The notes under the pieces are model-generated. The model ran no database searches. It was not told the DNA's origin and was given only the letters and a program-made list of their open reading frames with translations. A stretch of 64,000 nucleotides of DNA from Pseudolabrys sp. (GTDB lineage Bacteria; Pseudomonadota; Alphaproteobacteria; Rhizobiales; Xanthobacteraceae): assembly GCA_036557605.1 (NCBI GenBank), contig DATBHE010000074.1:17671-81670 (forward strand), read 5' to 3'. Of the stretch, positions 14,495-54,594 are shown one piece after another; position 1 is the stretch's first letter, and each line of letters starts with the position of its first letter. The position numbers and the translations under genes are program-made.

Positions 14495-16753
14495 TTAGTT
14501 ATGGTTGCCAAATGCGCGTCCCTCCAATGAGACGGCAAGTGCACCCTCTGTTTGGACCGCCTGAGCCTGCTTGTCCTTACCCCTCGAAACTGTCGGACGG
14601 GCAGGCGGGAGCGGTCCGAGCGCGCGATTTGCGTCATCCAGCATACGCTCGACACGCACCAGGATTTCGGCACCCCGCTTGGTAAGGAGCGCGGGGCGCG
14701 GCGGAGGCTGGTTATCGCCCGGTTTCGATTTAACTTCGGCGACCGCTGGCTGCTGCCGTTCCTGCGGCACAGGGATGCCAGGAAGTTGTTTCAGTTCGAT
14801 TCCCTGATGTGCATAGGCCATAATTTTGTGCCACGTCATGGCCGGAAGCGAGCCGCCCGTCATGCGATTCGTCGATTGATAGTCGTCGTTTCCAAACCAC
14901 ACACCGCATACGAAATTGCCCGTGTATCCCATGAACCAGGCGTCTCGATACGCGTTCGTGGTACCTGTCTTGCCGGCTGCAGCCACGCCGTCGAGGCGTG
15001 CGCGGCGCCCGGTGCCGTTCTCCACCACGCTGTTCATCATTTTGATCATGTCTGCGGCGACGCCAGGGGGCAGCGCCTGCCGCGGCTTCGGTCCGTCTCG
15101 ATCGAAGCGCCATACGAGTTCGCCCGTTCCGGTCCGCACTTCCAGGATGGCGTGCGGTGTAACTGCCTTGCCCAGGTTCGGGAAAGTGGCATAGGCGCCA
15201 GTGTGATCGAGCACGGTGACCTCATCGGCACCGATCGGTAAGGAAGGCGTATCAGGCAGCGGCGTGCGAATACCCATATCGTGTGCGGTCTTGACAATGC
15301 GTGCCCGCCCGACCTTGGCGTTGCCGTGACCAATCGAAATCGACAACTTCACTGCAATCGTATTGACCGAGTGGGTGAGGGCCTGAATCAGCGTCATCGA
15401 ACCCGCGTAGCCGTGGCCATAGTTGTGAGGACACCAGTTGCCGATGCACACCGGACCATCAACCACGATCGATGTCGGTTTCATGCCATTTTCCAGCGCC
15501 GTGGCGTAAACATATGGCTTGAACGATGAACCGGGCTGACGCATCGCATCCGTCGCACGGTTGAATTGACTTGCGCCGTAATCGCGCCCGCCAACCATGG
15601 CGCGCACGGCGCCATCCACATCCATCAGGACAGCCGCAGCCTGCTTCGCGTGATATTCCTGACCGTATTGCCGTAACGAGCTTTCAACCGCCGCATCAGC
15701 GTTGTTCTGGAGACTCATATCAAGCGCGGTGCGGACCACGAACACCCGCTCTGTCATTGACTTCGGAAACGTGTCGACGAGCTTTTTCATTTCGTCAAAA
15801 GCCCAGTCGAGATAATAATTTGGCGCCCGGTCGTCCCGACGATCCACCGGCGTGGCCGGATGGCGGCGAGCACCGAAAACCTGGCCTTCCGTCATCATGT
15901 TGGCTTCGACCAGGTTGTCGAGCACGACGTTGGCGCGTGCGCGCGCAGCCGGCAGGTTGATGTGGGGTGCGAATTTTGTCGGAGCCTTGAACAAGCCGGC
16001 GAGCATCGCCGCTTCGGCCAGATTCACGTCGCGCGCTGACTTGTTGAAATAATATTGAGCCGCGGCGTCGACGCCGAATGCGCCACCACCCATGTAGGCG
16101 CGATCGAGATAGAGCTTAAGGATTTCATTTTTGGTGAGGCGGGCTTCAAGCCACATCGCAAGGAAGGCTTCTTTCACCTTTCGTTCGAGTGTGCGCTCGT
16201 TGTTGAGGAATAGATTTTTGGCAAGCTGTTGTGTAATCGAAGAGCCGCCTTGCACGACGCCGCCCGCTCTGGTGTTTGCTACCAGCGCGCGCGCCGTACC
16301 GGCGAGATCGATTCCGAAGTGTTCATAGAAACGCCGGTCTTCTGTCGACAGCACAGCCTTGATCAGATGATCAGGAAATTGATCGAGCGGAATCGAATCG
16401 TTATGCCGGATCCCGCGCGAGCCTACTTCGTTGCCGTAGCGGTCCAGGAAAGTCACCGCCAATTCGGATTTTTTCAACCAGTCATCGTCCGAAGTCTCGC
16501 GGAATGCGGGGACAGCAAGCGCCAGCAATACAACCAATCCGAACGCCCCGAGTGTTGCGCCTTCCGAAAACAATTCATTGAGCCAGCGCCGCCAGCCGGA
16601 GACGTGGAAACGGTCCATGAAGGTTGAAAAGCGCTCGTAAGTTTCGCGAGCGCCCGAAGCCCCCCGGAACAGGCTGAAGTCGATCCATGAGTCCAGCCGG
16701 AGCAGGAATCGCTTGATGCTGGACTTCCAGTCCTCGGGGAACAGTTCGCGCAA
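14495..16753 (-). CDS. Class A (PBP1A-family) penicillin-binding protein, transglycosylase/transpeptidase
   Basis: TG motifs EDRRFYEHFG, GGSSITQQLAKN, RKVKE; TP motifs SSFK, SVN, KTG. Confidence 0.95.
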   Translation of the reverse strand: MRELFPEDWKSSIKRFLLRLDSWIDFSLFRGASGARETYERFSTFMDRFHVSGWRRWLNELFSEGATLGAFGLVVLLALAVPAFRETSDDDWLKKSELAVTFLDRYGNEVGSRGIRHNDSIPLDQFPDHLIKAVLSTEDRRFYEHFGIDLAGTARALVANTRAGGVVQGGSSITQQLAKNLFLNNERTLERKVKEAFLAMWLEARLTKNEILKLYLDRAYMGGGAFGVDAAAQYYFNKSARDVNLAEAAMLAGLFKAPTKFAPHINLPAARARANVVLDNLVEANMMTEGQVFGARRHPATPVDRRDDRAPNYYLDWAFDEMKKLVDTFPKSMTERVFVVRTALDMSLQNNADAAVESSLRQYGQEYHAKQAAAVLMDVDGAVRAMVGGRDYGASQFNRATDAMRQPGSSFKPYVYATALENGMKPTSIVVDGPVCIGNWCPHNYGHGYAGSMTLIQALTHSVNTIAVKLSISIGHGNAKVGRARIVKTAHDMGIRTPLPDTPSLPIGADEVTVLDHTGAYATFPNLGKAVTPHAILEVRTGTGELVWRFDRDGPKPRQALPPGVAADMIKMMNSVVENGTGRRARLDGVAAAGKTGTTNAYRDAWFMGYTGNFVCGVWFGNDDYQSTNRMTGGSLPAMTWHKIMAYAHQGIELKQLPGIPVPQERQQPAVAEVKSKPGDNQPPPRPALLTKRGAEILVRVERMLDDANRALGPLPPARPTVSRGKDKQAQAVQTEGALAVSLEGRAFGNHN

Positions 16754-16964
16754 GGCGTGATGCTCTTGAAACAGACGTCGGCCAAACGACCGACAACAAT
16801 TTTAGCCGATCAGCGGACGGACGGCCAATGCCGCAATTCCGGCCGGTTGAAACCAAGGTGAACGGAAAATACCGTCAAAAATGGCCGAAATGAGCCTCCT
16901 CGGGCATGCGATGACGTGTTACTCGGGAAAAGCTAAAACCTGAAACCCCTCAAGGATTCGTTGT

Positions 16965-45266: not shown

Positions 45267-45341
45267 AAACGATATTTAAATGCAGGAAAACGCCCGCGCC
45301 GCCCCTTGCGCCGACAGGGCGCCTTAAGGCACTCAGGGTCC

Positions 45342-47939
45342 ATGGCAGGTCACGATCCGTCAGCGCCGGCGCAAGTGGCAGAGCGTGCGGACCCGCACGA
45401 GCGCAAGGCGTTTGACAAAAGCCAGGAGGGCTCGAGCGGCGGTTCGATTGGTCTGTTGCTTCTGGTGGCGCTGGCCCTGATCGGCGCCGCCGGCGGTCTG
45501 ACGTGGGTCAGCCGTGACTACGTAGAAGCCTACGTCCTTGCGCTGCTCGCGACCCTCGGAACGATCGGTGTGCTCGCGCTGTTTGCGGCGGCGACAGGGA
45601 TCCTGCGATTTGCGGGCAAAGATCAGGGAAATCCCTTGCTGAAGGCCGTGGTCGACGGCGCATTCGACGGGATCCTGGTGACCGACCACAGCGGTCGCGT
45701 CCTGTACGCAAACGCGACCTACCTTGATCTGATCGGCGCAACAGACATGCGGGACGTTCGGCCGATCGAACGCGTCTTCATCGGCGACCCGGACGTGTCG
45801 GAGTCGATCTACAGACTTCTCAAGGCCGCGCGTGAAGGACGGCGGCTGCAGGAAGAGGTCAGGGTCACCGGAATAGCAGGCGAGGGCGCCCGGTGGCTGC
45901 GCATGCGTGTGCGGCCGCTCGGTGAGAGACGCCGCGATGCGCGCACGACAGTGTGGTCGATCGCCGATGTGACGCGGGACCGCGAGCGTCAGGAAAATGT
46001 GTTTCAGGAGCTGCAATATGCCATCGACTATCTCGACCACGCCCCGGCGGGATTTTTCTCGGTCGATGCGGCAGGCGACATCGTCTACCTGAATGCGACG
46101 CTCGCGTCATGGCTCGACCATGATCTCGCTCAGGTCGGCACCGGCTCGCTCAAACTGGCCGACATCGTCGCGGGAGAAGGCGCCGCGCTGCTCACCGCAT
46201 TCAGTGCGGCCCCAGGTGAAGTGAGGACCGAGGTGCTCGACTTTGACCTCAAGACCCGGGGCGGCAAGCCAGTGCCCGTGCGGCTGTTTCACAAAGTCGC
46301 CTTCGGTGCCGACGGCGCAGCTGGCGCGTCGCGCACGCTGGTGCTCAATCGGGCAAGAGGCGACGGCAGCGATCCGCAACGCGCGGCCGAAGTCCGCTTC
46401 ATGCGATTCTTTCAGAACACACCGATGGCCATTGCGACTGTTGACAAGACGGGCCGTATTGCGCGCAGCAATGCGCGATTCGCGAGTGCGTTCGAAGGGC
46501 TCCTCAAGAGGGACGACCGCTCTATCCTTTCGGTGGTCGTCGGGCGCGACCGACCCGTGCTGGAAGCCGCGATCCGCAAAGCTGCCGAGGGGCAGAGTGA
46601 TATCGCGCCGGTCGAGGCGGCCTTGACCGGAAGCGCCGAACGCTGGGCGAATTTCTTCGTCCTGGCCATCGAGGAGCAAGATCGCGACGGGGAAGCCGCC
46701 ATCGTCTACGCACTGGAAACGACGGCGCAACGCACGCTCGAGAATAGAATTCAGCAACAGCAGAAGATGGAATCGGTTGGACAGCTCGCGGGCGGCATTG
46801 CCCACGATTTCAACAATGTGCTGTCAGCCATCATGATGGCGACTGATTTTCTTCTCAACGCCCACAAGCCGACGGATCCTTCGTTCAAGGATATTATGCA
46901 GATCAAACAAAATGCCAATCGGGCCGCGGCGCTCGTACGCCAGCTACTGGCATTCTCACGCAAGCAGACATTGCGTCCGCAGGTGCTGGATCTCGGCGAA
47001 ACCTTGAGCGACCTGGGAATGCTGCTCAAGCGTCTGATTGGCGAAAAAGTTGCGCTCGAAATCGTACATGGGCGCGATCTGTGGCCGGTGAAAGCAGATA
47101 TTTCACAGTTCGAACAGGTGATTGTGAATCTCGCCGTCAACGCGCGCGACGCCATGCCCGATGGTGGCAGGCTCACAGTCCGCACCGCCAATGTCGGCGC
47201 CGACGAATGCGCCAAGTTCGATTACAAGGGCATGCCCAAAGCGGACTATGTGCTGGTTGAAGTCAGTGACACTGGTACTGGCATTCCGCCGGAGATCATC
47301 GACAAGATATTTGAGCCATTCTTCACCACCAAGGAAGTCGGGAAAGGAACCGGACTGGGACTCTCGACGGTTTATGGAATAGTCAAGCAGACGGGTGGAT
47401 TCATCTACGCGGAGTCGGAATCAGGCTGGACGTCGTTTCGCATTTTCCTTCCGCGCCATGTTCCGGGCGCGGAGGAAGTTCTCGCGCAGATTCCGGCAGC
47501 GGACTCTCCTGCAATCGCCGATGCCATGTCGGCTGCGCACTCAATGGCGCGGGCCGCGACTGCAGATCTCACGGGGCAGGGCACAATTTTGCTGGTCGAG
47601 GATGAGGAAGGGCTGCGCGCGCTCAATGCGCGCGGTTTGTCCTCCCGCGGGTATACAGTGTTGGAAGCGAGCAACGGCATGGAAGCCATCGAGACCTTCG
47701 ACAAACACGGTCACGTTGACCTTGTCGTGTCGGACGTCGTCATGCCCGAAATGGATGGACCGACATTGCTCAAGGAGCTTCGCCAACGTGACCGGAACGT
47801 GAAGATTATTTTCGTCTCCGGTTATGCCGAGGAGGCGTTCAGTAAAAACCTGCCCAGTCAGGAGCAGTACGCGTTCCTCGCCAAGCCTTTTACGCTCAAG
47901 CAGCTGGTTGCCGAAGTCAAAAAAACGCTGGTGCAGTGA
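45342..47939 (+). CDS. cckA: Cell-cycle hybrid histidine kinase CckA
   Basis: Two TM, PAS domains, H-box AGGIAHDFNN, HATPase GKGTGLGLS, REC domain (VEDE, SDVVMP, KPF); directly after flhB. Confidence 0.92.
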   Translation: MAGHDPSAPAQVAERADPHERKAFDKSQEGSSGGSIGLLLLVALALIGAAGGLTWVSRDYVEAYVLALLATLGTIGVLALFAAATGILRFAGKDQGNPLLKAVVDGAFDGILVTDHSGRVLYANATYLDLIGATDMRDVRPIERVFIGDPDVSESIYRLLKAAREGRRLQEEVRVTGIAGEGARWLRMRVRPLGERRRDARTTVWSIADVTRDRERQENVFQELQYAIDYLDHAPAGFFSVDAAGDIVYLNATLASWLDHDLAQVGTGSLKLADIVAGEGAALLTAFSAAPGEVRTEVLDFDLKTRGGKPVPVRLFHKVAFGADGAAGASRTLVLNRARGDGSDPQRAAEVRFMRFFQNTPMAIATVDKTGRIARSNARFASAFEGLLKRDDRSILSVVVGRDRPVLEAAIRKAAEGQSDIAPVEAALTGSAERWANFFVLAIEEQDRDGEAAIVYALETTAQRTLENRIQQQQKMESVGQLAGGIAHDFNNVLSAIMMATDFLLNAHKPTDPSFKDIMQIKQNANRAAALVRQLLAFSRKQTLRPQVLDLGETLSDLGMLLKRLIGEKVALEIVHGRDLWPVKADISQFEQVIVNLAVNARDAMPDGGRLTVRTANVGADECAKFDYKGMPKADYVLVEVSDTGTGIPPEIIDKIFEPFFTTKEVGKGTGLGLSTVYGIVKQTGGFIYAESESGWTSFRIFLPRHVPGAEEVLAQIPAADSPAIADAMSAAHSMARAATADLTGQGTILLVEDEEGLRALNARGLSSRGYTVLEASNGMEAIETFDKHGHVDLVVSDVVMPEMDGPTLLKELRQRDRNVKIIFVSGYAEEAFSKNLPSQEQYAFLAKPFTLKQLVAEVKKTLVQ

Positions 47940-48677: not shown

Positions 48678-49601
48678 GTGATGATCCGCTACAGATTGCT
48701 GATCGTTTTTGCGACGGTTGCTGCCGGACTTGCGCTTGTCGCCGCCGATGCCAACGCTCGTGCGGGTGGGGGCTTCTCGGCTGGGAGCCGCGGCATGCGC
48801 ACCTTCTCCGCGCCACCCGTTACGCGTACTGCGCCGACCACAGCTGCGCCGATTCAACGAACGATAACGCAACCACGTGCTGCAAATACGGTAGGTCAGG
48901 CATCGACCCGACCGGGACTGTTCGGGGGCGGATTGTTGGGCGGTCTAGCGGCGGGTTTCCTTGGTGCGGGCTTGTTCGGCCTTTTATTCGGGCACGGGTT
49001 TTTCGGCGGGATGGCTGGTCTTGCTTCCGTCCTCGGACTGATGCTGCAAATCGTCCTCATTGTAATTATCGCGAGAATGCTGTTCGCGTGGTGGCAGCGG
49101 AAGCAAATGCCTGTGCCCGCTTATGCCGGCGGGCATCGCGCGACCGGTCATTCTTTTAGCGGTCTTGGTGGCATGGTCGTCGGCCAAGCTTCGTCCGGCG
49201 AACCGCTTACGATCGGCAAAGCGGATTACGACGCGTTTGAGAGCTTGCTTGGCGAAATTCAGTCGGCCTATTCAGCCGAAGACATCAACGCGCTGCGGAC
49301 CAAGGTGACGCCTGAGATGCTGTCCTATTTTTCAGAACAGCTCGCCGAGAATGCCGGTCGCGGCCTTGTCAACAAGATTGACGGCGTTCGGCTCGAACAG
49401 GGCGATCTGGCCGAGTCCTGGCGTGAAGGTCAGGTCGAATATGCAACCGTTGCTATGCGATTCGCGCTGGCCGATCGGATGGTCGACCGTGTTACCGGTC
49501 GCGCAGTTGAGGGTGGTTCGCCCACGCAAACAACTGAATTGTGGACGTTCATGCGTGCCCCCGGCGGCAAGTGGCTGCTTTCCGCGATCCAGCAAACATA
49601 G
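48678..49601 (+). CDS. TIM44-like domain protein
   Basis: GGGFSAGSRG..T Gly-rich N-terminus, TM, C-terminal NTF2-like TELWTFMR..GG.WLLSAIQQ. Confidence 0.88.
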   Translation: MMIRYRLLIVFATVAAGLALVAADANARAGGGFSAGSRGMRTFSAPPVTRTAPTTAAPIQRTITQPRAANTVGQASTRPGLFGGGLLGGLAAGFLGAGLFGLLFGHGFFGGMAGLASVLGLMLQIVLIVIIARMLFAWWQRKQMPVPAYAGGHRATGHSFSGLGGMVVGQASSGEPLTIGKADYDAFESLLGEIQSAYSAEDINALRTKVTPEMLSYFSEQLAENAGRGLVNKIDGVRLEQGDLAESWREGQVEYATVAMRFALADRMVDRVTGRAVEGGSPTQTTELWTFMRAPGGKWLLSAIQQT

Positions 49602-49623
49602 AACTGATCTTTCACGACGATTC

Positions 49624-49956
49624 TTAAACGTTTTCCACGACCTTGTTAGTGGAGGAAGTGACGTCTGCCATGGGCCTTGCGTTTGCACGTACACGTTCGT
49701 CAAGCCATGAATCAAACTTTACCCCGATCTCCCGCGGCTTGCGCCATATCACCCGACAACGCCGGCGGGTCGATCCGTTCTCGGCGAGCAGCAACAGGAA
49801 AGTGTCCGGGATCGCTTCCGAGTCGGGGATGTTGATATGCGCCCCGTTGCTCGAAATGTTGGTAATGATGCATTCGCATCGCTGTCCGGCCTCCGGCATG
49901 AGCCAGGCAGCACGGTGTAACCGGTGGCGTCGCGTCTTGCGTTTGTCTCCGCGCAT
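49624..49956 (-). CDS. Stand-alone PilZ domain protein
   Basis: RKTRR (RxxxR) and NISSNG (D/NxSxxG) c-di-GMP-binding motifs; CRVIWR...GVKF. Confidence 0.88.
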   Translation of the reverse strand: MRGDKRKTRRHRLHRAAWLMPEAGQRCECIITNISSNGAHINIPDSEAIPDTFLLLLAENGSTRRRCRVIWRKPREIGVKFDSWLDERVRANARPMADVTSSTNKVVENV

Positions 49957-50282
49957 GGTGCCCCGCGGGCGTCACATTGAGTCGAACGGCCTTACAGCGT
50001 TCAGGTTCTGTTAATTGTTGCGGATCGGCGGCAGGCAACTGTAACAAGTAGCCTTTACAAATTCATAAAACGTTATTCGACGGCGCTGATCACGCTTAGA
50101 ACCGTTGACCTTGCAGCGAAATACGTTTATGTCGCCGCCCGCAACCTGGTTTTCGGCCTTAACTTGCTGCCACGCTCCCAGTTTCGGGCTACGCCTCAAG
50201 TGAACTCCCAAAAACTTGGCTTGTGACCGCCAACGCGATGACGCGTCGGCGTTCAACAGGAAAGCGTGAAAGGAAACTCTTG

Positions 50283-50486
50283 ATGCCTGTCGGAACTGTG
50301 AAATTTTTCAATACTCAAAAAGGCTACGGCTTCATTCAGCCGGACGATGGTTCGAAAGACGTTTTTGTGCACATCACGGCCGTGGAGCGTGCTGGAATGC
50401 GCTCGTTGGTCGAGGGTCAGAAAATTACCTTCGAAATCGTCACCGAGCGCGGGAAGCAGGCCGCCGGCAATTTGCAGCCGGTCTGA
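50283..50486 (+). CDS. Cold-shock protein (CspA family)
   Basis: GTVKFFN..KGYGFI (RNP1), DVFVHI (RNP2). Confidence 0.96.
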   Translation: MPVGTVKFFNTQKGYGFIQPDDGSKDVFVHITAVERAGMRSLVEGQKITFEIVTERGKQAAGNLQPV

Positions 50487-50506
50487 CCGTATTGCAGTCT
50501 TGAAGC

Positions 50507-50537
50507 AAAAGCCCGGCGGGATACGCCGGGCTTTTTT
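50507..50537 (+). terminator. Rho-independent terminator after csp
   Basis: AAAAGCCCGGCG-ggata-CGCCGGGCTTTTTT. Confidence 0.85.
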
Positions 50538-50617
50538 CGTCCAATACATTTAAAGTGTCACTTTTAAAGTGTTGCATTCGAGCGTGGACACGGGGACATT
50601 GTGACAAGAGGGGAGAT

Positions 50618-51031
50618 ATGACCATGGATATTATTGCTTGCGGGTCGCGTCCCTCCCGCCGAATGGGACCGCCGAGTTTCACCGGAACGGTTTGGCAGGA
50701 CCCTATTATTCAGGCGCCCGATCCGGCGCGTATTCGATCTGCATGGGTCCGCTTCGAGCCCGGTGCCCGAACGGCTTGGCATACCCATCCGCTCGGACAG
50801 ACCCTTTTCATCACGTCCGGTATTGGCCGTGTTCAGACCTGGGGCGGCCCGGTGCGCGAGGTTCGTGCCGGCGACACCGTCTGGATTCCGCCGGGTGAGA
50901 AACATTGGCACGGTGCTACCGCCGAGCATGCGATGGAACATCTTGCGATGCAGGAGGCTCAGGGTGGCGAACATGTCACCTGGCTCGAGCCTGTGACCGA
51001 CACGCAATATTCGGGCAAGTCCGCCGGCTAA
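50618..51031 (+). CDS. Cupin (hydroxynitrile-lyase-like small cupin family)
   Basis: FTGTVWQDP, FEPGARTAWHTHPLGQTL, PGEKHWHGA. Confidence 0.9.
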   Translation: MTMDIIACGSRPSRRMGPPSFTGTVWQDPIIQAPDPARIRSAWVRFEPGARTAWHTHPLGQTLFITSGIGRVQTWGGPVREVRAGDTVWIPPGEKHWHGATAEHAMEHLAMQEAQGGEHVTWLEPVTDTQYSGKSAG

Positions 51032-51137
51032 ACGGCCGATCAACGACTCGTGATTGCCCGGAATACATCCATCAATATTGTTGTTGTGTCTCCCGATGGC
51101 GGGGCAACGGGTCCTGCCGATAGCGGGAGGATTAGTA

Positions 51138-51794
51138 ATGAAGTTTCGACTCGGCGCGTCGTTGGCGGCTTGCGCAATGGTAGTTTGCTCCGCCTCCGCC
51201 GACGCTCAACAATCAAATATGTCGTTCTTTCTAACGAGCGTTGGACCAGGCAAGGGTGCTGACCTTGGTGGGTTGGCCGGCGCCGATCGTCATTGCCAGC
51301 AGCTCGCGGCATCGGTGGGGGCCGGTGCGAAGACGTGGCATGCCTATCTCTCCACGCAAGGTGCCGGCGCAGTAAATGCGCGTGACCGGATTGGTAGGGG
51401 ACCCTGGGTCAATGCAAAAGGTGTAACGATTGCAAAGGACGTTGCAGAGCTGCATGGAGCCAACAATCTAACCAAGCAGACGGCACTCAGTGAAAAAGGC
51501 GAAGTGAACAACGGTAGGGGGGACACGCCGAACAAGCATGACATTCTTACCGGTTCGCAGCCCGACGGCACCGCTTTCGCCGGAACTGATGATCGCACCT
51601 GCAAGAATTACACGAGCAGCACGCAAGGCGCGGTCATGGTCGGACACGCCGATCGGCAAGGCCTGCGCGATGACGAACCGTCCAAGTCCTGGAACTCGTC
51701 GCACCCTTCGCGCGGGCCGGATGGCGGCTGCTCGCAGGCGGACCTCCGTAGCACTGGAGGCGATGGGTTGCTGTATTGCTTTGCCGTAAATTAG
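51138..51794 (+). CDS. Secreted endostatin/C-type-lectin-like fold protein
   Basis: Signal peptide; GGLAGADRHCQQLA...TWHAYLS, HDILTGS, LLYCFA terminus. Confidence 0.72.
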   Translation: MKFRLGASLAACAMVVCSASADAQQSNMSFFLTSVGPGKGADLGGLAGADRHCQQLAASVGAGAKTWHAYLSTQGAGAVNARDRIGRGPWVNAKGVTIAKDVAELHGANNLTKQTALSEKGEVNNGRGDTPNKHDILTGSQPDGTAFAGTDDRTCKNYTSSTQGAVMVGHADRQGLRDDEPSKSWNSSHPSRGPDGGCSQADLRSTGGDGLLYCFAVN

Positions 51795-51817
51795 CAGGAT
51801 TATTTTGGGTACCGACT

Positions 51818-51848
51818 CCGGCGAAGTGGGTATTTTCCGCTTCGCCGG
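51818..51848 (+). terminator. Stem-loop after the endostatin-like gene
   Basis: CCGGCGAAGTGG-N7-CCGCTTCGCCGG with one G-U pair, T-rich run downstream. Confidence 0.5.
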
Positions 51849-51984
51849 CGTTTCTGCTTTTTTCCATAAAACGGTCGTGGTATCGAACTACTGATTTCGG
51901 CCGTGCTTTGCGTGATTTGCCGGGGGAAACAACGAGTGGGGGAGCCTCTGTGCCGAACTGGGCGGCCGGAGGCACAATAGGGCG

Positions 51985-53268
51985 ATGCCGCAAATCGAAA
52001 ACGTATTGCTCCTTTTTGGAGACGCACTTCTTTACTTCGTTGCGTTGGCTGCACTCCTGAGGGCACGAACACGCCTGGGGCTCGGTGCGTTTTTCTGCAC
52101 CCTCGGCGTGATGCATTTCCTCGAGACCTATCTCGCCAGCATTCTTTACGTCTCACTGCCGTTTGACATCGTCAGCTCGCCGGGTTCGACGGTGCTCTTT
52201 ACCGGCAAGCTGATGATGTTGTTGCTCCTCTACATCCGCGAGGACGCAGTTGTCGTACGGCAGCCGATCTACGGTCTCTTGTTCGGCAACGTGCTTTTGT
52301 TCGCACTTGCCTTCGTCATGCGTCACCACATACCGGCTGCGCTCGTGCCCGGGCGTGCCGCGGATTTCGCCTTTCTCAACGAGATGGGCGCTCTGATGGT
52401 GTGGGGAACGGCAATTCTGTTCTTCGACTGTCTTCTCATCATTCTGCTTTATGAGCGTTCAAGAACATGGTTCGGCGACCATGTATTTCCGCGCATTGCC
52501 TTATGCGGAGCGCTGGTGCTCACATTCGATCAAGCTGCATTCTTCGTCGGACTGCACATGCTCACCGGTGCGGGCCTTGATGTCCTGGTCGGTGGCTGGT
52601 TTGCCAAAATGGCGGCAGTCGCGCTTTATTCGGTTCTTGCCGGCTTCTACCTCATGTATTTCGAGCGGCCGCTCAGGCGTCACGCGGAAGCCCCGCGCAT
52701 ATGGGATGTTTTCGACACGCTGACCTATCGCGAGCGTTACGAGAATCTCCTCGCGCGTACCGGCTGCGACTCGCTCACAGGCGCGCTCGACCGGCAGTCA
52801 CTCGAGGTGCATGGCCGCCGGGCGGTCGAGCATGCCGCCGCCGCGGGTCGACAGCTCGCGCTGCTGCTCATCGATATCGATCATCTCAAGCACCTGAACG
52901 ATCGGTTCGGTCACGGCGCGGGTGACAGAATCCTCAAGCGGACCGTGCTCGACGTCATTGCGACTGTGCGGATGTCCGACTTCATTTATCGGTTCGGCGG
53001 GGAAGAATTTGTCGTTATTGCCGACGGCCTTAATATCGATGATGCGTTGACCCTGGGCGAGCGCATTCGGCGACGCGTTGCGTCCAGCGGCAGCGAGGCC
53101 GAAGGCCGGCTTACTGTCAGTATCGGCATCGCCCATTGCCCGCGCGACGGGAGAGATTACGAAACGCTGTCTGATGTTGCCGACAGACGACTCTATGAGG
53201 CGAAAGCGGCCGGCCGAAATTGCGTCGTCGGCGGCGAGAAAAGCGTACGCCTCGTTCACGCCGGCTAG
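51985..53268 (+). CDS. Membrane diguanylate cyclase (GGEEF) with multi-TM N-terminal domain
   Basis: DIDHLK..ND.FGH.AGD, RFGGEEF, I-site RMSD, ADRRLYEAK; about 7 hydrophobic helices N-terminal. Confidence 0.92.
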   Translation: MPQIENVLLLFGDALLYFVALAALLRARTRLGLGAFFCTLGVMHFLETYLASILYVSLPFDIVSSPGSTVLFTGKLMMLLLLYIREDAVVVRQPIYGLLFGNVLLFALAFVMRHHIPAALVPGRAADFAFLNEMGALMVWGTAILFFDCLLIILLYERSRTWFGDHVFPRIALCGALVLTFDQAAFFVGLHMLTGAGLDVLVGGWFAKMAAVALYSVLAGFYLMYFERPLRRHAEAPRIWDVFDTLTYRERYENLLARTGCDSLTGALDRQSLEVHGRRAVEHAAAAGRQLALLLIDIDHLKHLNDRFGHGAGDRILKRTVLDVIATVRMSDFIYRFGGEEFVVIADGLNIDDALTLGERIRRRVASSGSEAEGRLTVSIGIAHCPRDGRDYETLSDVADRRLYEAKAAGRNCVVGGEKSVRLVHAG

Positions 53269-53398
53269 CGGGATTATCAATTTCGGAACGAAGACGACCG
53301 TGGCGGCTTGTGCCGACCCCCGTGGTCTTGCTTCAATGGGATCGGCGCGCGCCTGTGTGTCAGGGCAAGCACGGCAATGGCGCGCGAATGGTGCTCTT

Positions 53399-54109
53399 AT
53401 GCGTTATCAATTGTTCTATTGGCCGGAAATCCAGGGACGTGGCGAGTTTGTGCGCCTTGCGCTCGAAGATGCGGGCGCTACCTACGACGATGTGGCCCGT
53501 AAAGCGGGTGGCACGGACCGCATGCTTGCGATGATGAAGGGTGGGCGCGACAAACATCCGCCGTTCGCCCCGCCTTTTCTGAAAGCGGGCAAGCTCGTGA
53601 TCGCGCAGGTCGCCAATATCCTTTTCTATCTCGGACCTCGCCTGAAACTTGCCCCCCGGGACGAAATCGGACGAGTATGGCTTCATCAACTCCAGCTGAC
53701 CGTCACGGATTTCGTGAAAGAAATCCATGACACACACCATCCGGTGGGTTCGGGCCTTTATTACGAGGACCAGATGCCGGAAGCGAAGCGCTATACCGGA
53801 AACTTCCTCAGCGAGCGCGCGCCAAAATATCTCGGTTATTTTGAGACCGTGTTGAGGAAGAGCAAAGGACCTTATTTGCTTGGTCGCAAAGCGACTTATG
53901 CAGATTTATCGATGTTTCAGTTGATCGAAGGGCTGCGTTACGCCTTCCCAAGGGCAATGAAAGATATCGAGCGAAAGGTGCCTGGCGTGGTCTCTGTTCG
54001 AGACAAGGTTTCAGAGCATCCGCGCATCAAATCCTACCTCGGGTCACCGCGGCGGCTCGCCTTCAACGAAATGGGGATTTTTCGTCGGTATCCGGAATTG
54101 GATGGTTGA
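53399..54109 (+). CDS. Glutathione S-transferase
   Basis: LFYWPEIQGRGEFVRLALE, PFAPPFL, IAQVANIL, TYADLS. Confidence 0.9.
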   Translation: MRYQLFYWPEIQGRGEFVRLALEDAGATYDDVARKAGGTDRMLAMMKGGRDKHPPFAPPFLKAGKLVIAQVANILFYLGPRLKLAPRDEIGRVWLHQLQLTVTDFVKEIHDTHHPVGSGLYYEDQMPEAKRYTGNFLSERAPKYLGYFETVLRKSKGPYLLGRKATYADLSMFQLIEGLRYAFPRAMKDIERKVPGVVSVRDKVSEHPRIKSYLGSPRRLAFNEMGIFRRYPELDG

Positions 54110-54117
54110 CTGCGAGA

Positions 54118-54594
54118 CTATCCTTGCGCCGCCAGCGCCTTGCCGCCGGCGGTCGCCGGCTTTGCCGATATCAACGTGAATGCAATCACGCAGGGTTCGC
54201 TGCCTTTATTAATCCAGTTGTGAATTGTGCCACGCTGCACGAGCACATCGCCGGCCTTCAGATGGACGCTTGTGCCGTCCAGGTCCATGTCGATCTCGCC
54301 GGCTATCACGACGGCATAGTCGATCGAGTCAGTGCGGTGATTGCGCGGCGCTACACCAGGAGCGAAACTGACGATCCGAAACACTGTTCCGTTTGGAATC
54401 GTCGTTCCGATCTTCTCGCTGGAGGGGTCGACCTCGCCGTCGTTATCGACCGGGAAGCCCTGGCTGGACCAGATCACGCTGTAAAGCGCACCAGGACGTT
54501 GCGATGTAACATTCTTGACTGTCTCGTCGATCAGCACTTTCGCACGGCCGTGTTCATCGTGTCCGGTGACGACGCGTCGGATGTTCAGGCTCAT
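54118..54594 (-). CDS. Cupin domain protein
   Basis: IRRVVTGHD, HRTDSIDY, GDVLVQRGTIHNWIN. Confidence 0.9.
   Translation of the reverse strand: MSLNIRRVVTGHDEHGRAKVLIDETVKNVTSQRPGALYSVIWSSQGFPVDNDGEVDPSSEKIGTTIPNGTVFRIVSFAPGVAPRNHRTDSIDYAVVIAGEIDMDLDGTSVHLKAGDVLVQRGTIHNWINKGSEPCVIAFTLISAKPATAGGKALAAQG

What the first reader, a model, noticed from the sequence alone, without database searches (positions are those of the whole stretch)
51985..53268. Diguanylate cyclase whose sensor looks like a VUT/YhhQ (queuosine-precursor) transporter
Seen: an intact GGEEF active site and RxxD I-site behind about 230 aa of membrane domain. Helix by helix this domain follows the pattern I associate with VUT family (Vut_1, COG1738/YhhQ) transporters: ...PGSTVLFTGKLMMLLLLYIREDAVVVRQPIYGLLFGN... 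matches G-x3-(F/Y)-x3-FL-x2-D-x3-E-x-YG-x3-AR-x5-GF, and RIALCGALVLTFDQAAFF...GGWFAKM matches R-x3-ST-x3-Q-x2-D-x3-F...x-K. E. coli YhhQ imports preQ0/preQ1. Inference: a transporter-derived sensor (transceptor) linking a small-molecule or nucleobase cue to c-di-GMP. I know of no characterised example.
Basis: partly seen in the sequence, partly recalled or inferred. Interest (0 to 1): 0.65.

Follow-up and report, generated by a model that had tools for sequence, protein, structure and literature searches.

The report
Vitamin-transporter-like sensor on a diguanylate cyclase

Summary
The ORF at 51985-53268 (+) is real: 427 aa, with GGEEF at residues 338-342 and an RxxD I-site at 329-332. Its membrane part is a full-length match to Pfam PF20973 VUPS, "Vitamin uptake-like sensor" (E 1.2e-78), followed by GGDEF (E 1.5e-34).

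- Profile-profile comparison gives 97% probability, E 5e-11; reversed and shuffled controls score 21 or less against 78.
- The two Pfam models cross-hit each other's members.
- Five near-invariant residues are shared in register.
- The AlphaFold model (pLDDT 94) and a model of a genuine Vut_1 transporter find the same three viral VUT-type structures.

The design is not new. VUPS is a curated family with more than 500 clusters at 50% identity, fused to GGDEF, PAS-histidine kinase, GAF and HD-GYP outputs. This scan has already reached the same verdict three times on other DNA. A transporter-derived diguanylate cyclase receptor, Sd-Amt1, has been characterised.

Nothing links this gene to queuosine. 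The genome's true Vut_1 gene sits beside queC, whereas this gene has no queuosine neighbours and no riboswitch. The ligand remains unknown.

Small additions from this work: a conserved juxtamembrane LTYRxxYE motif outside the Pfam boundary, a predicted 7-TM topology, and a predicted dimer through the membrane domain.

The parts
51985..53268 (+). Complete CDS of the VUPS-GGDEF diguanylate cyclase (427 aa, P0001)
   Evidence: ORF list and translation. Same-length relatives at 72-95% identity, all annotated PF20973+PF00990.
52036..52653 (+). VUPS (vitamin uptake-like sensor) membrane domain, residues 18-223. The whole membrane module is residues 1-225: seven helices plus a beta-hairpin at 56-64.
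   Evidence: Pfam PF20973: 263.9 bits, E 1.2e-78, model positions 1-206 of 206. AF2 model pLDDT 94.1, pTM 0.89. hhalign to Vut_1: 97%, E 5e-11 and 9e-11. Foldseek hits to viral VUT-type models. Positive-inside pattern of the loops.
52705..52743 (+). Conserved cytoplasmic juxtamembrane motif D-x-F-x2-L-T-Y-R-x-R-Y-E (residues 241-253), at a fixed distance before the GGDEF domain. Probably the signal-transmitting helix.
   Evidence: The core L-[TS]-[YF]-R-x2-[YF]-[ED] is found 20-27 residues after TM7 in 64 of 78 VUPS proteins with a cytoplasmic extension, including 38 of 43 long PAS/kinase proteins. It matches only once in 25,203 other downstream residues. It lies outside the Pfam model boundary.
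52765..53220 (+). GGDEF diguanylate cyclase domain, residues 261-412
   Evidence: PF00990 E 1.5e-34. TIGR00254 E 1e-40.
52969..52980 (+). I-site RxxD (R329-M-S-D332), for allosteric product inhibition
   Evidence: Regex on the translation: RMSD lies five residues before GGEEF.
52996..53010 (+). Active-site GGEEF (residues 338-342)
51818..51848 (+). Terminator-like hairpin between the upstream lectin-like gene and this gene, which suggests the cyclase gene is its own transcription unit
   Evidence: 13-pair stem with 9 G-C pairs. This is a consensus match only; the number of such sites in the region is not above the shuffled expectation.

Best explanation
The gene encodes a VUPS-GGDEF diguanylate cyclase. 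Shown: an N-terminal membrane module belonging to Pfam family VUPS, which is a diverged homologue of the VUT/YhhQ (Vut_1, TC 2.A.88) transporter fold, is fused through a conserved juxtamembrane helix to a GGDEF domain with an intact GGEEF active site and an RxxD I-site. Predicted: seven membrane helices with the N-terminus outside and the C-terminus in the cytoplasm, and a homodimer held by membrane helices 1, 2 and 4. Inferred mechanism: a small molecule binds in the membrane-embedded cavity inherited from the transporter, which is lined by the residues shared with VUT proteins (D87, R92, D182, F186, K208). Binding shifts TM7 and the LTYRxxYE helix. That shift changes how the two GGDEF domains of the dimer face each other and so switches c-di-GMP synthesis, and the I-site limits output through product inhibition. 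The ligand is unknown, and nothing here points specifically to queuosine precursors.
For: Family assignment: PF20973 E 1.2e-78 over the full model, PF00990 E 1.5e-34, TIGR00254 E 1e-40. Homology to VUT: hhalign 97.1%, E 5e-11, 159 columns, reproduced with an independent Vut_1 alignment at 97.0%, E 9.1e-11. Reversed and block-shuffled controls score <=21.3 against 77.7. Four of 83 VUPS proteins also hit the Vut_1 model (best 6.7e-9), and the VUPS model scores 29.1 bits on a true Vut_1 gene. Shared near-invariant residues: D87/D57, R92/R69, D182/D154, F186/F158, K208/K186. Fold: the VUPS model (pLDDT 94.1) and a true Vut_1 model (pLDDT 89) find the same three BFVD entries in the same order with similar TM-scores, one of them named 'Putative vitamin uptake transporter'. 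Sensor role: the same module precedes PAS/HisKA/HATPase (27-43 members), GGDEF (24), GAF, REC and HD-GYP in 83 diverse members. Topology: Lys+Arg averages 2.0-2.6 in alternate loops against 0.01-0.7 in the others. Dimer: ipSAE 0.69, best of 3 controls 0.00; the mark was reached by 21 of 30 proteins solved as pairs of one chain and 0 of 23 solved as single chains. The interface lies wholly within residues 2-127 and includes the VUPS-specific conserved G32, G41, Y96 and N102. Catalytic motifs. Precedent for the mechanism: Sd-Amt1, an Amt-HAMP-GGDEF ammonium receptor (PMC11152129).
Against: No ligand, transport or enzyme activity has been measured for any VUPS protein that I could find; no paper in the held library names the domain. 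PDB holds no related structure (best Foldseek E 0.29; no sequence relative), so the cavity and the position of the shared residues within it are inferred, not seen. D87 and R92 sit at the cytoplasmic end of the helix pair, so they may serve gating or signalling rather than ligand binding. The Asn of the DxLTGLxNR guanine-contact motif is Asp269 here and in the nearest clade, with unknown consequence. The dimer model was made without an alignment and places no confident contacts between the GGDEF domains.
Confidence: 0.75

Rival explanations
1. The sensor specifically detects queuosine precursors (preQ0, preQ1 or queuine), as YhhQ transports them, coupling queuosine salvage to c-di-GMP.
For: Homology to the family whose characterised members carry preQ0/preQ1 or queuine (PMC5372724, PMC11130926). 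The charged core residues are retained.
Against: There are no queuosine genes next to the gene here or in relatives, and no preQ1 or other riboswitch in 49500-54500. The genome makes queuosine de novo (TGT, QueC, QueF), and its genuine Vut_1 gene, not this one, lies beside queC. VUPS lacks the VUT E-x-YG segment and has its own conserved set: SPGS, E86, Y96, N102, D148, E157. The YhhQ authors themselves stress that specificity differs between VUT subgroups and cannot be read from sequence.
Confidence: 0.08
2. It is a true transceptor: the membrane module still transports its substrate and signals while doing so.
For: The five residues most conserved in VUT transporters are retained. The two Pfam models cross-hit each other's members.
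Against: A 7-residue deletion removes the segment holding the only Gly that is invariant across the Vut_1 alignments. There is an extra N-terminal membrane helix. Sequence is highly conserved across very different output architectures, which is typical of dedicated sensor modules. One sampled 'stand-alone' VUPS protein is a split sensor kinase and the other cannot be judged. The characterised analogue Sd-Amt1 is described as a receptor.
Confidence: 0.1
3. The membrane module binds no specific ligand. It serves as a dimerising membrane anchor or reports a bulk membrane property such as lipid state or membrane potential.
For: The predicted dimer interface lies entirely in the membrane domain, and no ligand is known.
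Against: Buried charged residues (D87, R92, D148, D182, K208) are 94-100% conserved across members only about 30% identical overall. That is costly in a membrane and hard to explain for a mere anchor.
Confidence: 0.12
4. The membrane domain belongs to another known sensor family (MASE, 5TMR-LYT, 7TMR-DISM), and the VUT resemblance is only the compositional similarity of membrane helices.
For: In the language-model atlas, MASE1 and 5TMR-LYT clusters appear far down the list (scores 0.62).
Against: The Pfam scan at E<=10 lists only VUPS for the membrane part. Reversed and shuffled controls remove the hhalign signal. The fold search is reciprocal with a true VUT model.
Confidence: 0.01
5. The GGDEF domain is catalytically dead and acts only as a c-di-GMP or GTP receptor.
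For: The Asn of DxLTGLxNR is Asp269.
Against: GGEEF, the FGHxxGD aspartate, AKxxGRN and the I-site are all intact, with strong scores against the diguanylate cyclase models.
Confidence: 0.04

Closest known systems
Pfam PF20973 VUPS (Vitamin uptake-like sensor) proteins, in particular the VUPS-GGDEF architecture
   Same: Full-length match far above the cut-off. All family-wide conserved residues are present. Same architecture as thousands of database proteins already labelled PF20973+PF00990 and as 24 of 83 diverse representatives.
   Different: Nothing substantive. It is the Pseudolabrys-type orthologue (87-90% identity to Pseudolabrys MAG genes). No member of the family appears to have been characterised experimentally.
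VUT family / Vut_1 PF02592 / COG1738: E. coli YhhQ (QPTR), the preQ0/preQ1 transporter (PMC5372724)
   Same: Homologous fold and helix order, including the beta-hairpin before the D...R helix pair. Shared D, R, D, F and K residues in register. hhalign 97%. Same Foldseek targets.
   Different: This protein does not reach the Vut_1 model at all, and BLASTP gives E about 0.8. A 7-residue deletion removes the E-x-YG segment. A full extra N-terminal membrane helix gives 7 TM with the N-terminus outside, against 6 TM in YhhQ. It has a cytoplasmic output domain and no queuosine gene linkage.
Sd-Amt1, an ammonium-transporter module fused via HAMP to a diguanylate cyclase (PMC11152129)
   Same: A transporter fold repurposed as a membrane receptor that controls a GGDEF domain by dimerising it. 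This is a characterised precedent for the proposed mode of action. An Amt-PAS-GGDEF-EAL gene even lies beside a VUPS-GGDEF gene in locus L036.
   Different: Unrelated transporter fold (Amt trimer), a HAMP linker instead of the LTYRxxYE helix, and a known ligand (ammonium).
Membrane-embedded sensor modules of c-di-GMP enzymes and histidine kinases (MASE1-12, 5TMR-LYT, 7TMR-DISM; MASE9-12 are described in bioRxiv 10.1101/2021.11.05.467447)
   Same: Promiscuous multi-helix N-terminal modules with conserved charged residues inside the membrane, which the authors of that paper take to bind ligands within the membrane.
   Different: No sequence relationship was detected. Unlike these, VUPS has an identifiable transporter ancestor.

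Membership tests
Pfam PF20973 VUPS | Score above the curated gathering cut-off over the whole model | tested here: met
   263.9 bits against a cut-off of 27; model positions 1-206 of 206, residues 18-223. Also found by the genome search at 266.2 bits.
Pfam PF20973 VUPS | Family-wide conserved residues (R28, G32, G41, SPGS 65-68, Y83, E86-D87-A88, R92, Y96, N102, G141, D148, E157, D182, F186, K208, Y222) | tested here: met
   All are present in P0001 except position 25 (Leu where 90% have Phe); alignment of 83 representatives about 30% identical to it.
Pfam PF20973 VUPS | N-terminal membrane module followed by a cytoplasmic signalling output | tested here: met
   GGDEF at residues 261-412. Positive-inside pattern puts the C-terminus in the cytoplasm. 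The architecture survey shows the same layout with PAS, kinase, GAF and HD-GYP outputs.
VUT / Vut_1 PF02592 (YhhQ, QPTR) | Score above the Vut_1 gathering cut-off | tested here: not met
   No Vut_1 hit for this protein even at E<=10. Four of 83 relatives do hit it.
VUT / Vut_1 PF02592 (YhhQ, QPTR) | Homology detectable at profile level and the same fold | tested here: met
   hhalign 97.1% and 97.0% with clean controls. Reciprocal Foldseek hits to the same three viral VUT-type models.
VUT / Vut_1 PF02592 (YhhQ, QPTR) | Signature loop D-x3-E-x-YG-x3-AR between helices 2 and 3 | tested here: not met
   D87 and R92 are retained, but a 7-residue gap removes E-x-YG, including the Gly that is invariant in the Vut_1 alignments.
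VUT / Vut_1 PF02592 (YhhQ, QPTR) | Conserved D-x3-F in helix 5 and Lys in helix 6 | tested here: met
   D182/D154 (100% in both families), F186/F158 (96% and 95%), K208/K186 (98% and 90%).
VUT / Vut_1 PF02592 (YhhQ, QPTR) | Six transmembrane segments (UniProt topology of YhhQ cited in PMC5372724) | tested here: not met
   The model has seven long helices, with loop charges fitting N-out/C-in. In the Vut_1 model the first helix is only 12 residues. This rests on prediction only.
VUT / Vut_1 PF02592 (YhhQ, QPTR) | Genomic association with queuosine genes or a preQ1 riboswitch | tested here: not met
   Neighbours are CSD, cupin, lectin-like, GST, cupin and EamA genes. No riboswitch. The genome's true Vut_1 gene is the one beside queC.
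VUT / Vut_1 PF02592 (YhhQ, QPTR) | Transport of preQ0/preQ1/queuine | not testable with these tools
   Needs uptake or complementation assays.
Active GGDEF diguanylate cyclase (PF00990) | GG(D/E)EF active site and domain model match | tested here: met
   GGEEF at 338-342. PF00990 E 1.5e-34; TIGR00254 E 1e-40.
Active GGDEF diguanylate cyclase (PF00990) | RxxD I-site five residues upstream of GG(D/E)EF | tested here: met
   R329-M-S-D332 followed by five residues and then GGEEF.
Active GGDEF diguanylate cyclase (PF00990) | Guanine-contacting Asn (DxLTGLxNR) and Asp (FGHxxGD). Their roles are recalled from the PleD literature, not checked here. | tested here: inconclusive
   Asp314 is present. 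The Asn position is Asp269 here and in the nearest clade, and Asn in most other VUPS-GGDEF proteins.
Active GGDEF diguanylate cyclase (PF00990) | Dimerisation, needed to join two GTP-loaded domains | tested here: met
   Prediction only: ipSAE 0.69, best of 3 controls 0.00. The mark was reached by 21 of 30 proteins solved as pairs of one chain and 0 of 23 solved as single chains. The interface lies in TM1, TM2 and TM4.
MASE / 5TMR-LYT / 7TMR-DISM sensor modules | Match to any of their Pfam models | tested here: not met
   None is listed for residues 1-245 at E<=10.

The most novel reading that the evidence does not exclude
The VUPS cavity still recognises a VUT-type micronutrient, either a 7-deazapurine such as preQ0/preQ1/queuine or a vitamin-like compound. 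This protein and its thousands of relatives would then couple external micronutrient availability to c-di-GMP or two-component signalling, with the LTYRxxYE juxtamembrane helix as the common transmission element. That would be a first ligand for an entire uncharacterised sensor family.
Probability: 0.12. Interest if true: 0.55.

Novelty: new member of a known kind. Interest (0 to 1): 0.2.

Why it matters
It matters little as a discovery, because the domain, its name and its relationship to vitamin-uptake transporters are already in Pfam, and this protein is a typical member. It has modest value as a pointer. VUPS is a widespread sensor module (more than 500 clusters at 50% identity; kinases, cyclases and HD-GYP phosphodiesterases) with no known ligand and no solved structure. 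Orthologues at about 50% identity exist in cultured, tractable Alphaproteobacteria (Mesorhizobium loti, Roseibium aggregatum), so finding its ligand is feasible. The shared D/R/D/F/K core, the conserved juxtamembrane motif and the predicted membrane-domain dimer give concrete targets for mutagenesis.

Tried and rejected
- **Pairwise BLASTP** of the membrane domain against E. coli YhhQ and the genome's own Vut_1 protein: not significant, E about 0.8. The relationship is visible only with profiles.
- **Sequence search of PDB** with the VUPS domain and with YhhQ: no relatives.
- **Foldseek against PDB:** nothing significant. Best E 0.29; the ECF S-components PanT 4rfs_S and BioY 4dve_A reach only TM about 0.36 at 9 A rmsd. 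A link to ECF S-components could not be shown here.
- **Literature:** no paper in the held library names VUPS or PF20973. The paper defining MASE9-12, whose Pfam accession (PF20972) is adjacent, does not mention it. I could not trace the source of the Pfam entry.
- **The search for related loci with alignment A2:** failed because no stretch was conserved enough. It was rerun with the single protein.
- **Conserved gene neighbourhood as a clue to function:** rejected. The lectin-like and GST neighbours occur only in close Xanthobacteraceae relatives. Among 30 loci at about 50% identity, no neighbour is shared by more than 7.
- **Stand-alone VUPS proteins as possible free transporters:** one is a split sensor kinase and the other lies on an 895-bp contig, so this gives no support.
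Full report
**The object.** The window has an ATG-initiated ORF at 51985-53268 (+) encoding 427 residues. Database relatives at 95% down to 72% identity are the same length and align end to end, so the gene model is sound. The nearest named relatives are genes of Pseudolabrys sp. MAGs (87-90% identity). The window's assembly is 3.86 Mb in 144 contigs and 92% complete.

**Domain assignment.** Pfam gives two domains. PF20973 VUPS, "Vitamin uptake-like sensor", covers residues 18-223 with E 1.2e-78 and all 206 model positions. PF00990 GGDEF covers residues 261-412 with E 1.5e-34. NCBIfam agrees on the cyclase (TIGR00254, E 1e-40) and has no model for the membrane part. The GGDEF domain carries these motifs:
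- DSLTG at 262
- FGHGAGD at 308
- RMSD at 329-332, five residues before GGEEF at 338-342 (canonical I-site spacing)
- AKAAGRN at 406

One deviation: the Asn of the usual DxLTGLxNR motif is Asp269 here and in the nearest clade.

**Is the VUT/YhhQ relationship real?** A Pfam name is not a test, so I tested it independently.
- Pairwise BLASTP to E. coli YhhQ and to the genome's own Vut_1 protein is not significant.
- An exhaustive phmmer search with residues 1-240 found 512 clusters at 50% identity. I aligned the membrane domain of 83 diverse members that carry a complete domain (A2).
- I built a Vut_1 alignment from YhhQ plus genes recovered with the Vut_1 model from genomes of the same phylum. 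hhalign of A2 against it gives 97.1% probability, E 5e-11, over 159 columns.
- With the template reversed, the query reversed, or blocks of columns shuffled, the score falls from 77.7 to 21.3 or less.
- The tool's own hhalign, using a Vut_1 alignment without YhhQ, gives 97.0%, E 9.1e-11, in the same register.
- The two Pfam models cross-hit. Four of 83 VUPS proteins also match Vut_1 (best 6.7e-9), and the VUPS model scores 29.1 bits on a gene that is a strong Vut_1 match.
- Five positions are near-invariant in both families and aligned: D87/D57, R92/R69, D182/D154, F186/F158 and K208/K186.

**Fold.**
- AlphaFold2 on A2 gives a confident model: pLDDT 94.1, pTM 0.89, seven long helices and a beta-hairpin at residues 56-64.
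- PDB contains nothing comparable (best E 0.29) and no sequence relative of YhhQ.
- In the viral predicted-structure library, three entries stand two to three orders of magnitude above the rest. They are H9YPT0 (TM 0.75, rmsd 3.6 A), A0A8S5QJH9, named "Putative vitamin uptake transporter", and A0A1U9WRB1.
- Two of these carry no name, so I modelled a genuine Vut_1 protein (pLDDT 89) and searched the same library. It returns the same three entries in the same order with similar scores. The sensor domain therefore resembles VUT-fold proteins about as well as a real VUT transporter does.
- The two models share the order helix, beta-hairpin, helix pair, loop, three helices. The difference is at the N-terminus: a 12-residue helix in Vut_1 and a full membrane helix in VUPS.

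The second motif (R...ST...D...F...K) is in the right register: R170, C174/G175, D182, F186, K208. The first is only partly right. D87 and R92 match the VUT Asp and the Arg of "AR". VUPS lacks seven residues that in VUT hold E-x-YG, including the invariant Gly, so Y96-G97 is not the VUT "YG".

**What kind of module it is.** In the 83 representatives the same N-terminal module precedes these outputs:
- PAS domains: 43 members
- HATPase_c / HisKA: 29 / 27 members
- GGDEF: 24 members
- GAF: 9 members
- receiver domains: 8 members
- HD-GYP: 1 member

One further protein has 1,685 residues with many PAS and GAF domains. This is the signature of a promiscuous sensor input.

Alternate loops carry 2.0-2.6 Lys+Arg on average and the others 0.01-0.7. 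That fits seven membrane spans with the N-terminus outside and the output domain in the cytoplasm.

Beyond the Pfam boundary I found a conserved juxtamembrane motif, D-x-F-x2-L-T-Y-R-x-(R/K)-Y-E (residues 241-253 here).
- It lies 20-27 residues after TM7 in 64 of 78 members with a cytoplasmic extension, including 38 of 43 long PAS/kinase proteins.
- It matches only once in 25,203 other residues of the same proteins.
- In the 14 direct VUPS-GGDEF fusions that could be measured, TM7 and the GGDEF start are 38-46 residues apart, mostly 40-41.

A homodimer prediction scores ipSAE 0.69, with the best of 3 controls at 0.00. That mark was reached by 21 of 30 proteins solved as pairs of one chain and by 0 of 23 solved as single chains. 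The symmetric interface lies entirely in residues 2-127 (TM1, TM2, TM4). It includes the VUPS-specific conserved residues G32, G41, Y96 and N102, which suggests these are conserved for dimerisation.

**Mechanism (inferred).** A dimeric membrane receptor binds a small molecule in the cavity inherited from the transporter. The signal passes through TM7 and the LTYRxxYE helix to the pair of GGDEF domains, and the RxxD site gives product inhibition. A characterised precedent for a transporter fold repurposed in this way is Sd-Amt1, an Amt-HAMP-diguanylate cyclase ammonium receptor (PMC11152129).

**The queuosine idea.** The genome has TGT, QueC and QueF. It also has one genuine Vut_1 gene, which lies directly beside queC and overlaps it on contig C50. 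That is the classic queuosine linkage described for YhhQ (PMC5372724).

The VUPS-GGDEF gene has no such link.
- Its neighbours are a cold-shock gene, a cupin, a secreted lectin-like protein, a GST, a second cupin and an EamA transporter.
- A terminator-like hairpin precedes it.
- No riboswitch is found in 49500-54500.
- The neighbourhood is kept in close relatives but not around more distant VUPS-GGDEF genes. Among 30 loci at about 50% identity, no neighbour is shared by more than 7.

The ligand is therefore open, and a queuosine precursor is only one possibility of low probability.

**Distribution.** Strong VUPS matches occur in 4 of 151 sampled genomes of the phylum, counting this one, all in the window's own order, and in none of 14 model organisms. 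At least 576 loci encoding relatives exist in the species-representative genome set. They include cultured Mesorhizobium loti, Roseibium aggregatum, Shinella, Phyllobacterium and Sphingobium strains at about 50% identity.

**Novelty.** Pfam names the domain for exactly this relationship, database relatives carry the annotation, and three earlier reports of this scan on other genomes reached the same conclusion. I could find no publication or experiment on any VUPS protein in the held library. The family is therefore known but uncharacterised. This gene is an ordinary new member.

Noticed in passing
window 49624-49956 (-): A 110-aa single-domain PilZ protein (PF07238, E 1.7e-8) with visible RxxxR and NxSxxG motifs lies about 2 kb upstream of the cyclase gene. 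A homologue is present in 17 of the close-relative loci. It is a possible local c-di-GMP receptor, but the link is untested.
   Followed up: partly
window 51138-51794 (+): A secreted protein with no Pfam hit lies immediately upstream. The language-model atlas places it in 'putative lectin' clusters (score 0.98), some of whose members carry DUF1554 or Endostatin. It co-occurs with the cyclase gene only in close Xanthobacteraceae relatives (24 loci).
   Followed up: partly
window 52705-52743 (+); alignment A1: The juxtamembrane motif D-x-F-x2-LTYR-x-(R/K)-YE follows the VUPS domain whatever the output domain (64 of 78 members). It lies outside the Pfam model boundary, so the functional sensor module seems about 30 residues longer than the Pfam domain.
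   Followed up: yes
G000 contig C50, about 15641-16893 (-); locus L002 1459-2082 (-): The genome's only genuine Vut_1 (YhhQ-type) gene lies directly downstream of queC, overlapping it, probably in one operon. This fits a queuosine-precursor transporter.
   Followed up: partly
L036 669-3902 (+): In a metagenomic relative, the gene immediately upstream of a VUPS-GGDEF gene encodes a 1,077-aa Ammonium_transp-PAS-GGDEF-EAL protein. Two different transporter-derived c-di-GMP sensors sit side by side.
   Followed up: no
window 50171-50538 (+): A sub-threshold match to the cspA thermoregulator RNA (38.8 bits against a gathering score of 78, E 1.4e-7) spans the leader and coding region of the cold-shock gene.
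   Followed up: no
L118 2007-2684 and 2763-4340 (+): A 225-aa 'stand-alone' VUPS gene is followed 79 nt later by a PAS-GAF-HisKA gene. This is either a naturally split sensor kinase or a frameshift in the assembly.
   Followed up: no
window 52789-52791 (residue 269): The Asn of the GGDEF DxLTGLxNR motif is Asp in this protein and its nearest clade, whereas most other VUPS-GGDEF proteins keep Asn. The effect on nucleotide binding is unknown.
   Followed up: partly
window 45306-47939 (+): A large hybrid sensor histidine kinase ORF of 877 aa lies upstream, and the syntenic relative L035 carries the corresponding PAS-HisKA-HATPase-receiver gene. Together with the PilZ and cyclase genes, this makes the region rich in signalling genes.
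   Followed up: no
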